This document shows, piece after piece, positions 9,488-11,579 of a stretch of DNA of 60,570 bases. The stretch's first letter is position 1, and every line of letters begins with the position of its first letter. A model generated the notes under the pieces. The model was not told the DNA's origin, did no database searches, and saw only the letters and a list, made by a program, of their open reading frames with translations. The position numbers and the translations under genes were made by a program. The stretch comes from a virus (Duplodnaviria; Caudoviricetes): positions 1 through 60,570 of IMG/VR virus record IMGVR_UViG_3300005613_000070. The stretch is one strand, 5' to 3'.

Positions 9488-10270
9488 ATGAAAAATATAA
9501 AAATTACAACCCAAAAAGAATTTGATGCATTACCAAAAAGTTTTGCGGAATATACCAACATTGAAATTGTTGGAAAAATAAAAAGAATAAATAAAATAAT
9601 CAAAAATGCTTTTATCTCTGTCTATGGTTCAGCTATCATTAAGTATGTCTCTGATTCAGCTATCATTAAGTATGTCTCTGATTCAGCTACCATTGAGTCT
9701 GTCTATGGTTCAGCTATCATTAAGTATGTCTATGGTTCAGCTATCATTAAGTCTGTCTCTGGTAATGCCATCATTAGAGTATTAAATGAAACTGTAAAAA
9801 TCATAAAAGTCAGGCAAGAAGTTATACTTATATATCAAAATTGCAAAGGTAAACCTAATAATGTTTCAGTTAATGTTTCTGTTTTGTATAAAAAGACAGC
9901 TAAACACGATATTAATTCATTCCTTGATTTTTACGATTTAAACCTCACTAAAGCTGGCTATATCATTCTGTATAAATCTGTTAAGCCTCAAAATAATTGT
10001 GATTTCCATACAGGAAAAATCAAATACGAGGGCACAGTTGAATGTCCTGATTGGAATCCTGATATTAATATTCAATGTGGTCATGGTTTGCATCTATCAG
10101 CTATCCCGGAACATGCTTTAAGATATAATCCAACTGGTGAAATCATAAAATGCAAAGTCAATATCAAGGATATAGTTGTGTATCCTTATGATATTTCAAA
10201 GGTGAGATGTAAAAAAGTAATAGCGCCAAGAATTAAAGCACAAATTGAGGAAGGAAGAGGCTTATTATGA
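9488..10270 (+). CDS. beta-solenoid repeat protein with C-terminal CGHGLH domain (DUF7666-like)
   Basis: 9-aa (S/Y)V(Y/S)(G/D)SAIIK repeats; QCGHGLH...KVRC motif. Confidence 0.7.
   Translation: MKNIKITTQKEFDALPKSFAEYTNIEIVGKIKRINKIIKNAFISVYGSAIIKYVSDSAIIKYVSDSATIESVYGSAIIKYVYGSAIIKSVSGNAIIRVLNETVKIIKVRQEVILIYQNCKGKPNNVSVNVSVLYKKTAKHDINSFLDFYDLNLTKAGYIILYKSVKPQNNCDFHTGKIKYEGTVECPDWNPDINIQCGHGLHLSAIPEHALRYNPTGEIIKCKVNIKDIVVYPYDISKVRCKKVIAPRIKAQIEEGRGLL
9617..9778 (+). repeat. six tandem 27-bp coding repeats
   Basis: Unit tmtgtctmtgrttcagctatcattaag; the sixth copy is degenerate. Confidence 0.9.
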
Positions 10271-10497
10271 ATGACGTATGTCCAGATTGTGGACGGCAAA
10301 AAGCACATAACGTAGAGGACGTATCAAAAGGTTATTGCCCAAAATGGTGGGCGATTAGAGATGCGGAGGCAGAAGAGGATTGCAAGCGTTTCGCCTCCCA
10401 ACAAGCAAATGAACCAGACCAGGCTAATCACGGGCCGAAATTAACACCAGGGGATTATTCAGGAGGCTGTTTACCTCCTGGCTCCCAAAAATTTTAA
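10267..10497 (+). CDS. Cys-rich hypothetical protein (cassette ORF; C-terminus reads into attC-like site 1)
   Basis: CPDC motif; ATGA overlap. Confidence 0.55.
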   Translation: MNDVCPDCGRQKAHNVEDVSKGYCPKWWAIRDAEAEEDCKRFASQQANEPDQANHGPKLTPGDYSGGCLPPGSQKF

Positions 10498-10526
10498 TCG
10501 CCTGGCAGATTATCTAAACGTTAAAT
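10396..10526 (+). mobile_element. attC-like integron cassette recombination site 1
   Basis: TCCCAAC-aagca-aATGAACcagaCCAGGC...GCCTGGcagattat-ctaaac-GTTAAAT. Confidence 0.6.
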
Positions 10527-10624
10527 GAAAAGAAAGATACAATGAAATTAGGTACTCAAATCAGGTTTAAAGACGGTCGAGTTGGTACTATGATTTACAA
10601 TAGTCTCATTGGTGAGGGCATTGT

Positions 10625-10834
10625 ATGAACAAAAGAAGTTTTGATAAATTAGCAGGTAGGTGCGATTTTCGGAAACCAGCACCTTATTATATTATAGAAA
10701 ATGGTGTAAAAAATGATGGGCCACCACATTGTATCACCGGAAAATTGTGTTCTTTCCAGAATTGTCCGTTGGCTATGTGGTTTGAAATGCTTTTCGGGTA
10801 CGAACCTAACCATCACATTGAGCAGAGCGTATGA
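10625..10834 (+). CDS. Cys-containing hypothetical protein (cassette ORF)
   Basis: ORF ends inside attC-like site 2. Confidence 0.55.
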   Translation: MNKRSFDKLAGRCDFRKPAPYYIIENGVKNDGPPHCITGKLCSFQNCPLAMWFEMLFGYEPNHHIEQSV

Positions 10835-10864
10835 TACCACGCTTGCTCATGTAAGGTGTTATAT
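10804..10864 (+). mobile_element. attC-like site 2
   Basis: ACCTAAC-catca-CATtGAGCAgAGCGT-loop-ACGCTTGCTCATG-taaggt-GTTATAT; stem with two unpaired bases. Confidence 0.75.
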
Positions 10865-10882
10865 TTTTAGGAAGGTAAAATA

Positions 10883-11047
10883 ATGAAAGAAGAAATAGAT
10901 AAATTATGTGATGTTCTTTGGTGGTTGAAGGGCTTCAGGGCTGGGGCTAACAATGACTGGAAAAATTGTCCATTTGATGAAACCTATCTTTTAGCATTAA
11001 ATAAGGCAATTCCTAATGAAAAAGAATTGTCATTTGGGGCACCATAA
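10883..11047 (+). CDS. 54-aa cassette ORF (not in ORF track)
   Basis: AGGAAGG RBS just after site 2; stop TAA lies in the CCATAAC box of site 3. Confidence 0.6.
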   Translation: MKEEIDKLCDVLWWLKGFRAGANNDWKNCPFDETYLLALNKAIPNEKELSFGAP

Positions 11048-11099
11048 CAAAGCAATGCAGCAGACAGGCTAACGCCTGCGGCTGATCGCAACGTTAGGA
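11042..11099 (+). mobile_element. attC-like site 3
   Basis: CCATAAC-aaagc-aATgCAGCagaCAGGC-taac-GCCTGcgGCTGAT-cgcaac-GTTAGGA. Confidence 0.75.
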
Positions 11100-11172
11100 G
11101 GATTCCATGACAACAATCACAGAAGATCCTTCTAACAAGGCATTAACCATTTAGATATGAAAGGAGTTTTTT

Positions 11173-11541
11173 ATGCCAAAACAAGGAATATTACACGACT
11201 ATGATATCCATGCCAATTATGAAGATTCGGCGCATGGTCAATTTTGTGTTATATGCGGGACATCCGATATGTCGTTTCAATGGTCTGATTATTCAGGAGA
11301 AGCCATGTGTACGAAATGCGGATGCCCATATCAGCTCAAATGGGGGTCCAATAAACAGGAAGAAGAAAACAACTATCCATATCTCAACATGAAAAAAGGC
11401 TTTATTCCTATTGCAAAAGAATATTGGAAGGAAAAGCATTCTTTTGTCTGCTATGGAATAATGATGGGGACACGTTCAGGTATGAAGGATTTAGTCGAAT
11501 GGTTAAAGGAAAATCATCCAGAAGAACTAAAAGAAGGTTAA
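11173..11541 (+). CDS. Zn-finger-like hypothetical protein (cassette ORF)
   Basis: CVIC and CTKC pairs; stop TAA in a GGTTAAC-aagca box resembling a left half attC. Confidence 0.65.
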   Translation: MPKQGILHDYDIHANYEDSAHGQFCVICGTSDMSFQWSDYSGEAMCTKCGCPYQLKWGSNKQEEENNYPYLNMKKGFIPIAKEYWKEKHSFVCYGIMMGTRSGMKDLVEWLKENHPEELKEG

Positions 11542-11579
11542 CAAGCAAGTCGAACGGAACAGCATAGAGGAGGAATGTA

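What the first reader, a model, noticed from the sequence alone, without database searches (positions are those of the whole stretch)
10267..11565. Phage-borne integron-like cassette array: attC sites bounding small ORFs, with no integrase
Seen: three complete elements (10396-10526, 10804-10864, 11042-11099) each have a (T/C)AAC left box, a 5-nt spacer, an imperfect inverted repeat with unpaired bases and a GTTA right box. Two degenerate left halves follow (TTCTAAC-aaggc at 11130; GGTTAAC-aagca at 11536). Small co-oriented ORFs start just after one site and stop in or read into the next; the stops at 11047 and 11541 fall inside the TAAC box. A 28-aa remnant ORF lies at 10542-10628. Established: this is the R''-L''-L'-R' architecture of integron attC sites and gene cassettes. 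Inference: the phage uses, or once used, a host IntI in trans to gain, lose and reorder accessory early genes, like a CALIN on a phage. No tyrosine recombinase was recognised in the window, and the left boxes match RYYYAAC only partly.
Basis: partly seen in the sequence, partly recalled or inferred. Interest (0 to 1): 0.9.

Follow-up and report, generated by a model that had tools for sequence, protein, structure and literature searches.

The report
Integron attC cassette cluster in phage
A short stretch of an uncultivated phage genome holds small genes separated by the folded recombination sites that bacterial integrons use to swap gene cassettes, with no integrase of its own; phage examples of this are already published, so this is a new example, not a new kind of system.

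Summary
The three elements are at the stated coordinates, each running from its left box to its right box.

Element 3 (11038-11103) is a classical integron attC site. A covariance model built only from 13 attC sites of published phage-borne integrons scores it 42 bits (E about 1e-6). That equals the best sites of the published virulent-phage arrays. The reverse test also works. A model built only from this phage family's elements finds the cassette boundaries in those integrons and nothing else there.

Element 1 is a homologue of element 3 with a much longer loop. Element 2 is more diverged. Both score weakly (15 and 12 bits). With a possible fourth site at 9352-9414, they make four of the six best matches in the window, all on one strand.

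I found no tyrosine recombinase in the window or in five related contigs. Two of seven related phage contigs carry their own attC arrays at other positions, with unrelated genes.

This is a cluster of attC sites lacking an integrase (CALIN), partly decayed. Recombination activity is inferred, not shown. Phage CALINs are already in print (Qi et al. 2023), and this scan has found several on other DNA. It is a new member of a known kind.

The parts
8468..9349 (+). Left conserved flank: PD-(D/E)XK exonuclease gene. It is not part of the array.
   Evidence: Pfam PF12705 at E = 2.8e-14 and PHROG exonuclease. Relatives of it were found in 25 other fetched loci. Nucleotide similarity to relatives ends near 9320.
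9352..9414 (+). Possible degenerate attC site (E0), directly after the exonuclease stop. It may be the left edge of the array.
   Evidence: R2 scores it 11.2 bits. E = 0.22 in the 3.4-kb local search and E = 4 window-wide, where it ranks sixth. It does not fold better than shuffles (z = +0.1 and +0.2). Boxes are GAATAAC and GTTAGCA. Weak.
9488..10270 (+). Cassette 1, gene a: 260-aa protein. Its C-terminal part resembles the C-terminus of phage rIIB-annotated families and DUF7666. It also has internal tandem repeats.
   Evidence: PHROG 609 and 3803, annotated 'RIIB lysis inhibitor', at E = 1e-10 to 1e-9. Pfam DUF7666 at E = 0.006, below its cut-off. Self-hits at 9617-9782. No relative in the other fetched loci.
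10267..10497 (+). Cassette 1, gene b: 76-aa ORF with a CxxC...C motif. Its 3' third runs through the left arm and loop of attC E1.
   Evidence: No Pfam or PHROG match.
10392..10530 (+). attC E1: diverged site with a long (about 65 nt) central loop. Left box 10396-10402, right box 10520-10526.
   Evidence: Both arms are homologous to E3. R2 scores it 14.8 bits, with E = 0.034 locally and 0.61 window-wide, where it ranks third. The fold is not significant.
10542..10628 (+). Cassette 2: 28-aa ORF.
   Evidence: No family match.
10625..10834 (+). Cassette 2: 69-aa cysteine-rich ORF with no known relative.
   Evidence: The 5.8-billion-protein search returned only the protein itself.
10800..10868 (+). 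attC E2: diverged site and a strong hairpin. Left box 10804-10810 matches RYYYAAC at 7 of 7 positions. Right box is 10858-10864. A run of T follows.
   Evidence: Fold z = -4.0 and -3.4. R2 scores it 11.6 bits, with E = 0.19 locally and 3.3 window-wide, where it ranks fifth. Its R1 score is not independent, because it was a training row.
10883..11047 (+). Cassette 3: 54-aa ORF. Its stop lies in the left box of E3.
   Evidence: No family match.
11038..11103 (+). attC E3: the well-preserved classical attC site. Left box 11042-11048, right box 11093-11099. The right box runs into a Shine-Dalgarno sequence (GTTAGGAGG).
   Evidence: R2, built from bona fide attC sites only, scores it 42.2 bits at E = 1.2e-6. 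Without filters it scores 42.1 bits and is the best match in the window. It aligns to the model with no gaps in either arm. The bottom strand folds at z = -3.1.
11130..11152 (+). Left-half remnant of an attC site (left box plus spacer). It lies inside a 15-codon ORF that starts at 11108.
   Evidence: Read. R2 gives only 6.0 bits. TAACAAG occurs 6 times on the + strand of the window, 2 of them here (P = 0.019). Tentative.
11173..11541 (+). 122-aa zinc-ribbon-type protein of a family that moves widely among phages. It lies between the two half sites.
   Evidence: At least 134 relatives at roughly 50-72% identity among those listed. Absent from 7 of 7 related full contigs. Present in 6 other viral contigs. 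Within 3 kb on either side of it, these share no other ORF of 50 aa or more with the window, and none has an attC match.
11536..11560 (+). Second left-half remnant. The stop of the 122-aa ORF lies in its TAAC.
   Evidence: Read. R2 gives 7.8 bits. Similarity to the closest relatives resumes at 11568. Tentative.
11580..12371 (+). Right conserved flank: Sak4-type AAA_24 single-strand annealing protein gene. It is not part of the array.
   Evidence: Pfam PF13479 and PHROG 124. 71 relatives, which were used to fetch related loci.

Best explanation
Window 9.35-11.6 kb is a cluster of classical integron attC recombination sites without an integron integrase (a CALIN). It sits in the replication/recombination module of an uncultivated tailed phage of about 60 kb.

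The cluster has one well-preserved site (E3) and two diverged ones (E1, E2). It also has a doubtful edge site (E0) and two truncated left halves. These sites delimit cassettes of 1116, 338 and 235 bp, measured G|TT to G|TT. The cassettes hold small co-oriented genes with no known function.

Shown here: the sites belong, by sequence and structure, to the same family as attC sites of class 1 and Shewanella integrons. The window encodes no integrase. Related phages carry independent arrays elsewhere.

Inferred mechanism: during infection of a host that has an integron, the host IntI acts on hairpins folded from single-stranded phage DNA. It cuts at G|TT of the right box. It then inserts, excises or reorders cassettes by attC x attC recombination, or by attC x secondary-site recombination. 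The genes are then read by run-through transcription of the + strand operon. The ribosome-binding site of the next gene follows the right box directly.

The divergence and truncation of most sites suggest an old acquisition that is decaying. Only E3 is a good substrate now.
For: 1. Forward test. Model R2 was built only from 13 attC sites of phage P1 MH445380 and Shewanella phage M16-3. In 21 sources (239,307 bases) it gives 8 matches at E <= 10. Six have E < 0.1, and all six lie in the window or in relatives L001 and L007. E3 scores 42.2 bits, E = 1.2e-6.

2. Calibration.
- R2 finds 3 sites in Tetrasphaera phage TJE1 (42.6, 23.3 and 21.9 bits).
- It finds 5 in Pseudoalteromonas phage H101 (41.9 to 16.9 bits).
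- It finds 1 in Polaribacter phage P12002L (14.8 bits).
- These are the virulent phages from which five of six tested attC sites recombined with IntI1 (PMC9892861, section 3.4 read).

3. Reverse test. Model R1 was built only from window E2 and E3 and L001 sites A, C and D.
- In the 126.5-kb P1 record it gives 5 matches, all at 79.3-88.3 kb beside the annotated integron integrase. Four abut the 3' end of an annotated gene of the array.
- In M16-3 it gives 8 matches. Seven lie between the small ORFs next to the annotated integron integrase, and one lies in the published CALIN.

4. Clustering. With R2 and no filters over the whole window, 4 of the 6 best matches lie in 9352-11103, all on the + strand.

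5. Homology. E1 is homologous to E3 in both arms.

6. Structure. On 33 aligned sites, 91.9% of cells pair, against 74.2% in shuffles. Nine of 16 pairs show double changes. None of 500 shuffles reaches the covariation score.

7. Specificity. R2 gives no match in 6 unrelated viral contigs or in 5 of 7 related ones.

8. No integrase. PF00589 matched in none of 5 related contigs. It also matched none of the 29 window ORFs scanned one by one.

9. Bacterial counterparts. Sites with the same consensus and variable loops occur in bacterial genomes. Three of 5 such genomes hold an integron integrase above the TIGR02249 cut-off, against 0 of 14 control genomes.
Against: - Only E3 is significant window-wide. 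E1, E2 and E0 have E = 0.61, 3.3 and 4.
- E1 and E0 do not fold better than shuffles.
- The training rows of R2 were picked with R1. R2 is therefore biased towards attC sites that resemble this family, although none of its rows comes from this family.
- No excision, insertion or cassette-wise variation was seen. The closest relatives (84% Sak4 identity) differ over the whole exonuclease-Sak4 interval.
- The two variable gaps also vary in relatives that have no attC site. So this phage family can exchange genes without attC sites.
- The 122-aa gene has relatives in 6 other phages, none with an attC match.
- The box consensus is met only in part. E3's left box matches 5 of 7 positions. In E1 only 3 of 7 box positions can pair.
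- In the 3 bacterial genomes with an integron integrase, the matching sites lie on other contigs than the integrase.
Confidence: 0.85

Rival explanations
1. The hairpins are phage RNA or transcription elements, such as weak intrinsic terminators, RNase processing sites or translational couplers between small early genes. On this reading they only resemble attC sites.
For: All sit between co-oriented genes. E2 is followed by a run of T. The right boxes of E3 and L001 site A run into a Shine-Dalgarno sequence. attC sites are themselves thought to act as weak terminators (PMC9892861, section 3.4), so the two roles can coexist.
Against: - The terminator scan found no terminator-like site in 10.2-11.6 kb.
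- Rfam has no match there.
- A model made from real attC sites finds E3 at E = 1e-6.
- E3 and three of the four folded L001 sites (A, B, C) fold at least as well on the bottom strand, which is not transcribed with the genes. Site B folds no better than shuffles on either strand.
- The same consensus sits at cassette ends in integrons.
Confidence: 0.06
2. The elements belong to a phage-specific hairpin cassette system served by a different recombinase, for example a Xer-like one. Earlier notes of this scan proposed such a system for Bacteroidota phages. On this reading the elements do not belong to classical integrons.
For: There is no IntI in the window. Earlier notes of this scan describe such systems (unchecked by me).
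Against: I found no tyrosine recombinase of any kind in the window or in 5 related contigs. The sites align arm for arm with class 1 and Shewanella attC sites.
Confidence: 0.05
3. Only E3 is real: a single stray attC site, or a fragment picked up with host DNA. The other elements are chance hairpins, so there is no array.
For: E1, E2 and E0 are individually not significant window-wide. Another match of similar score (11.7 bits at 40088) lies outside the region.
Against: - Three of the 5 best matches other than E3 fall within 1.75 kb on the same strand as E3. By my own arithmetic the chance of that is about 3e-5.
- E1 shares both arms with E3.
- Every site lies at the 3' end of an ORF.
Confidence: 0.1

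Closest known systems
CALINs (clusters of attC sites lacking an integron integrase) in phage genomes: Qi, Rajabal, Ghaly, Tetu, Gillings 2023, Front Microbiol, PMC9892861. I read the abstract, section 3.4 and passages of section 3.
   Same: - attC sites sit between small co-oriented ORFs in a phage with no integrase.
- R2 scores window E3 (42.2 bits) like the best sites of TJE1 (42.6) and H101 (41.9).
- The cassette genes are mostly of unknown function.
   Different: - This is an uncultivated phage family not in their set.
- Most sites here are diverged or truncated.
- Two of seven relatives carry separate arrays at other genome positions.
- No DNA methyltransferase cassette is present.
- Nothing has been tested at the bench.
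Classical integron attC sites (59-base elements) of mobile class 1 integrons and of the Shewanella integron, as carried on phage P1 MH445380 and Shewanella phage M16-3 MZ568829.
   Same: - The consensus is the same in both arms, in the box positions and in the unpaired positions.
- The central loop varies in length.
- The sites lie at the 3' end of cassette genes.
- Models built on either side find the other.
   Different: - There is no intI, attI or Pc promoter nearby.
- The cassettes are very small (235 and 338 bp).
- The genes look phage-like, not bacterial.
Sedentary chromosomal integron arrays in bacteria, for example Nitrosomonas aestuarii and Neptunicella and Granulosicoccaceae MAGs found by the pattern scan.
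   Same: - They share the right-arm word and the overall consensus.
- Integron integrases above the curated cut-off are present in 3 of 5 of those genomes.
   Different: - In those assemblies the integrase and the matching sites lie on different contigs.
- I found no shared cassette gene.
- The hits do not identify the phage's host.
Promoter-stem-loop cassettes that shuffle small early genes in T4-type phages.
   Same: Hairpins lie between small genes in hypervariable early regions of phages.
   Different: Those elements carry early promoters and act through homologous recombination. The elements here match attC models and carry no promoter-like site.

Membership tests
Integron attC site | Inverse core sites at the two ends, with the conserved AAC (left) and GTT (right) triplets. 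| tested here: met
   E0, E1, E2 and E3 all have ...AAC and GTT... at the ends of the model match.
Integron attC site | Full box consensus RYYYAAC / GTTRRRY, with the two boxes complementary. | tested here: inconclusive
   Read.
- E2: 7/7 and 6/7.
- E1: 6/7 and 7/7, but only 3 of 7 positions can pair.
- E3: 5/7 and 6/7, with 5 of 7 pairing.
In relative L001, site C is 7/7 and 7/7 and fully complementary.
Integron attC site | Imperfect palindrome that folds as a bulged hairpin from a single strand, bottom strand included. | tested here: met
   E2 has z = -4.0 and -3.4. The E3 bottom strand has z = -3.1. This is not met for E1 (z = -1.4 and -0.3) or E0 (z about 0).
Integron attC site | Significant score with a covariance model of bona fide attC sites. 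| tested here: met
   R2 scores E3 at 42.2 bits, E = 1.2e-6. E1, E2 and E0 reach E <= 1 only in a local unfiltered search (0.034, 0.19 and 0.22). IntegronFinder's own model could not be run.
Integron attC site | Unequal arms, with extrahelical bases that mark the recombining bottom strand. | tested here: inconclusive
   E3 aligns to R2 with no gaps in either arm, so it has the same unpaired positions as the 13 bona fide sites. I did not verify the identity of the extrahelical bases against the literature.
Integron attC site | Recombination by an integron integrase at G|TT. | not testable with these tools
   This needs an attC x attI assay. No sequencing run was listed that could show deletion variants.
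CALIN | Two or more attC sites close together. Qi et al. required a minimum of two. | tested here: met
   There is one strong site plus three at E <= 1 in the local search. They are spaced 235-1116 bp apart, all on the + strand. At a strict window-wide threshold only one site passes.
CALIN | No integron integrase nearby. | tested here: met
   - PF00589 matched none of the 29 ORFs scanned one by one.
- It is not among the 25 families shown, out of 45, for 48 ORFs.
- It matched in none of 5 related contigs.
Complete integron | intI gene with attI site and Pc promoter next to the array. | tested here: not met
   There is no integrase in the 60.6-kb window. I did not search for attI or Pc.

The most novel reading that the evidence does not exclude
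This family of roughly 55-60 kb uncultivated phages takes up classical attC cassettes repeatedly and independently, at different hot spots. In the window the array lies between the exonuclease and Sak4 genes. In L001 it lies between the Sak4 and SSB-like genes. In L007 it lies near a contig end. The cassettes carry phage-type genes: an rIIB-C/DUF7666-like protein and small zinc-ribbon proteins.

That would mean host integron integrases act on replicating phage DNA as a routine matter. Phages would then both draw on and feed the integron cassette pool with genes of their own, with the integrase always supplied by the host.
Probability: 0.3. Interest if true: 0.6.

Novelty: new member of a known kind. 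Interest (0 to 1): 0.35.

Why it matters
It adds an environmental phage lineage to the short list of phages known to carry integron cassette sites. Qi et al. found 17 CALINs in 10,705 phage genomes.

It also shows that such arrays come and go within one phage family, at different places in the genome. That fits the view that phages take part in the traffic of integron cassettes. The attC type might eventually help to name the host.

It does not change what is known about how integrons work.

Tried and rejected
- **Known phages and RNA families.** blastn of 9400-12400 against 50,697 phage records found nothing. Rfam at E <= 10 gave three chance-level hits, none related to the hairpins.
- **Whole genome.** None is held for the window.
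- **First relative searches.** Single-protein scans of IMG/VR with Sak4 and with the 122-aa ORF found nothing. An alignment was needed.
- **Alignment of the elements.** Half-site HMMs worked instead and pointed to L001.
- **Right-arm word in IMG/VR.** It gave 21 stretches. Two lie on the L001 contig. None of the other 19 had an R1 match, so they are chance hits.
- **Right-arm word in bacterial and archaeal genomes.**
  - I scanned only 100 of the 120 loci (L077-L176) with R1. That gave 13 matches at E <= 1 in 10 loci. L177-L196 were not scanned.
  - The word is part of the model, so partial matches were expected. No host can be inferred.
  - None of the 120 loci is a relative of the phage.
- **Match at 58365-58427 (- strand; R2 17.1 bits).** On reading, it is an AT-rich region of short repeated words, not an attC site. 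I rejected it.
- **Shared cassettes.** 37 ORFs of the arrays in the window, L001 and L007 have no relative in another array.
- **The 69-aa ORF.** It has no relative at all.
- **Relatives of the 122-aa gene.** Their contigs show no attC site. That gene gives no evidence of attC-mediated movement.
- **Sequencing runs.** None was listed for 9000-12400, so I could not look for deletion variants at G|TT.
- **Closed supplements.** I could not confirm that my R2 matches in TJE1, H101 and P12002L are the very sites they tested. The number of matches in TJE1 (3) agrees with their Figure 2 legend.
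Full report
**Setting.** The window is a phage-like contig of 60.6 kb.
- Early and replication genes lie on the + strand up to about 21.5 kb. Structural genes lie on the - strand beyond that.
- No whole genome is held for it, and no record in the phage collection resembles it.
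- The finding lies between a PD-(D/E)XK exonuclease gene (8468-9349) and a Sak4-type AAA_24 annealing protein gene (11580-12371).
- Between them are a 260-aa ORF with an rIIB-C/DUF7666-like end and ORFs of 76, 28, 69, 54 and 122 aa. All are on the + strand. The five small ones have no Pfam or PHROG family.

**The observation.**
- Elements 2 and 3 are real hairpins. Element 2 has z = -4.0 and -3.4. The bottom strand of element 3 has z = -3.1. Element 1 does not stand out as a fold.
- Element 1 is nevertheless a homologue of element 3 in both arms, with about 65 extra bases in the loop. Alignment scores are 32 and 26, against about 12 +/- 3 for random windows.

**Relatives.** An alignment of Sak4 relatives brought in 7 viral and 44 metagenome loci.
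- L008 is an identical contig.
- The exonuclease, Sak4, SSB-like and ParB-methylase genes are conserved in relatives. The whole interval 9.32-11.57 kb has no counterpart in any relative, at the DNA or the protein level.
- The closest relatives (L009 and L010, 84% Sak4 identity) hold other genes there.
- The interval is therefore an accessory hot spot. So is the gap between the Sak4 and SSB-like genes.

**The same elements in a relative.** Half-site HMMs made from the three elements hit L001 several times, all on one strand. L001 comes from a 54-kb viral contig with 65% Sak4 identity.
- Reading L001 shows an array between its Sak4 and SSB-like genes. Four full elements and one left half separate ORFs of 50-80 aa.
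- Site C has boxes that match RYYYAAC and GTTRRRY at 7 of 7 positions each and are fully complementary.
- Sites A, C and D fold with z from -2.1 to -6.6.

**Are they attC sites?** I ran the test in both directions.
- *Reverse test.* Model R1 was built only from window E2 and E3 and L001 sites A, C and D.
  - In the P1 phage that carries class 1 integrons (MH445380, 126.5 kb) it gave five matches, all at 79.3-88.3 kb. Four abut the 3' end of an annotated gene of the array, next to the annotated integron integrase.
  - In Shewanella phage M16-3 it gave eight matches. Seven lie in the gaps between the small ORFs beside the annotated integron integrase. One lies in the second array that Qi et al. 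describe.
  - Neither record gave a match anywhere else.
- *Forward test.* Model R2 was built only from those 13 bona fide sites.
  - It found further sites in the two training records. In P1 they lie just 3' of annotated genes of the array, and in M16-3 within the two arrays.
  - It found three sites in phage TJE1, five in phage H101 and one weak one in P12002L. These are the virulent phages whose sites Qi et al. tested with IntI1.
  - In my loci it found L001 sites C, A and D (48.6, 41.7 and 40.4 bits) and window E3 (42.2 bits, E = 1.2e-6). It also found two sites in a third relative, L007 (45.3 and 21.4 bits).
  - E3 aligns to R2 with no gaps in either arm.
- *Covariation.* On the joint alignment of 33 sites, 91.9% of cells pair and 9 of 16 pairs show double changes. 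None of 500 shuffles reaches the covariation score, and slid partners fall to 27-43% paired.
- *Caveat.* The training rows of R2 were chosen by R1, so R2 leans towards attC sites that resemble this family. None of its rows comes from this family, and its matches elsewhere are clean. There were none in 6 unrelated viral contigs and none in 5 of 7 related contigs.

**The weaker sites.** I searched the whole window with R2 and no filters. Nine matches reach E <= 10.
- E3 ranks first (42.1 bits).
- A rejected AT-rich repeat at 58.4 kb ranks second (17.1 bits).
- E1 ranks third (14.8 bits).
- A stray match at 40.1 kb ranks fourth (11.7 bits).
- E2 ranks fifth (11.6 bits).
- A new candidate, E0 at 9352-9414 right after the exonuclease stop, ranks sixth (11.2 bits).

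Four of the six best matches thus lie within 1.75 kb on one strand, each at the 3' end of an ORF. By my own arithmetic the chance of that is about 3e-5. In a local search of 3.4 kb their E-values are 0.034, 0.19 and 0.22.

I read E1 and E2 as diverged attC sites and E0 as doubtful. The two left halves at 11130 and 11536 get no model support (6.0 and 7.8 bits). They rest on a modest local excess of the TAACAA(A/G) word.

**No integrase.** PF00589 matched none of the 29 window ORFs scanned one by one. It is not among the 25 families shown, out of 45, for 48 ORFs. It matched in none of 5 related full contigs, while all 14 control genomes gave matches.

**Bacterial counterparts.** A 21-letter right-arm word shared by E3 and L001 was scanned over one genome per prokaryote species.
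- In 100 of the 120 loci, R1 gave 13 matches in 10 loci.
- Several of these match full-length, with both arms and loops of 3 to 61 bases. They include Nitrosomonas aestuarii, a Neptunicella MAG and a Granulosicoccaceae MAG.
- Three of five such genomes have an integron integrase above the TIGR02249 cut-off, against none of 14 control genomes. The integrase lies on other contigs than the sites.

This shows that the phage sites are of a type found in bacterial integron hosts. It does not name the host.

**Mobility.** I found no direct sign of it.
- No sequencing run was listed.
- No cassette is shared between arrays.
- The 122-aa gene has at least 134 relatives but is absent from 7 related contigs. 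In 6 other phages it has no attC site nearby.
- The two hot spots also vary in relatives without attC sites.
- What does speak for repeated acquisition is that three of eight family members carry arrays at three different places, with unrelated genes. These are the window, G001 (the contig of L001) and G012 (the contig of L007).

**What is known.** Qi et al. 2023 (PMC9892861; abstract, section 3.4 and passages of section 3 read) screened 10,705 phage genomes. They found 3 complete integrons, one integrase without cassettes and 17 CALINs. Five of six attC sites from virulent phages recombined with IntI1 at attI1.

A preprint reports that the integrase can insert cassettes outside att sites (10.1101/2022.09.11.507474). 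I saw only the start of its abstract in the listing. That would be a plausible route into a phage genome.

Earlier agents of this scan reported phage CALINs on other DNA several times. I did not check those reports, and they did not move my reading.

**Verdict.** This is a partly decayed cluster of classical attC sites without an integrase, in an uncultivated phage. It is a new member of a known kind. Activity is inferred, not shown.

Noticed in passing
L001:6934-7800 (IMG/VR contig of 54.5 kb): A better-preserved attC array lies between the Sak4 and SSB-like genes. Sites A (6934-6998), C (7351-7417) and D (7560-7624) score 40-49 bits with R2. Site B (7142-7231) has a degenerate left arm, and a lone left half lies near 7773. 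The ORFs between them (50, 75, 49, 73 and 80 aa) are mostly CxxC zinc-ribbon-like.
   Followed up: yes
L007:11036-11806, - strand (start of an IMG/VR contig of 58.8 kb): There are two R2 matches (45.3 and 21.4 bits), and by eye a third site near 11410-11500. The neighbouring genes seem to run on the opposite strand to the attC top strand, so the cassettes are reversed relative to the window and L001.
   Followed up: partly
window 58190-58500, - strand: An AT-rich non-coding stretch holds a 12-base palindromic word (TTTGATAATCAA) three times, plus inverted copies of a CTAACAAAGTT-like word. It looks like operators or iterons. It produced a false weak attC match.
   Followed up: partly
window 12590-12667, and the same place in L001, L009, L012, L014, L016 and L043: A leader of about 80 nt upstream of the SSB-like gene is conserved across relatives, whatever is inserted before it. 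It starts with an AAAGGAGGTGA word.
   Followed up: no
window 37584-49198, - strand: Sugar and glycan biosynthesis genes sit among the structural genes. They encode a UDP-GlcNAc 2-epimerase, an SDR, hexapeptide transferases, a PIG-L deacetylase, a glycosyltransferase, a B12 radical SAM enzyme, an MFS transporter and a cytidylyltransferase.
   Followed up: partly
window 11173-11541: The 122-aa zinc-ribbon-type protein belongs to a large, well-conserved family of unknown function, with at least 134 relatives at roughly 50-72% identity among those listed. It is scattered over unrelated phage contigs.
   Followed up: partly
window 9617-9782: Tandem in-frame repeats (GSAIIKYVS-like units) lie in the N-terminal half of the 260-aa ORF.
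   Followed up: no
L175 and L204 (Candidatus Methanoperedens MAG) and L091 (Saccharibacteria MAG contig of 1.7 kb): attC-type matches occur in an archaeal MAG. Two more lie about 640 bp apart on a tiny contig binned with Saccharibacteria. I did not check whether the binning is right.
   Followed up: no
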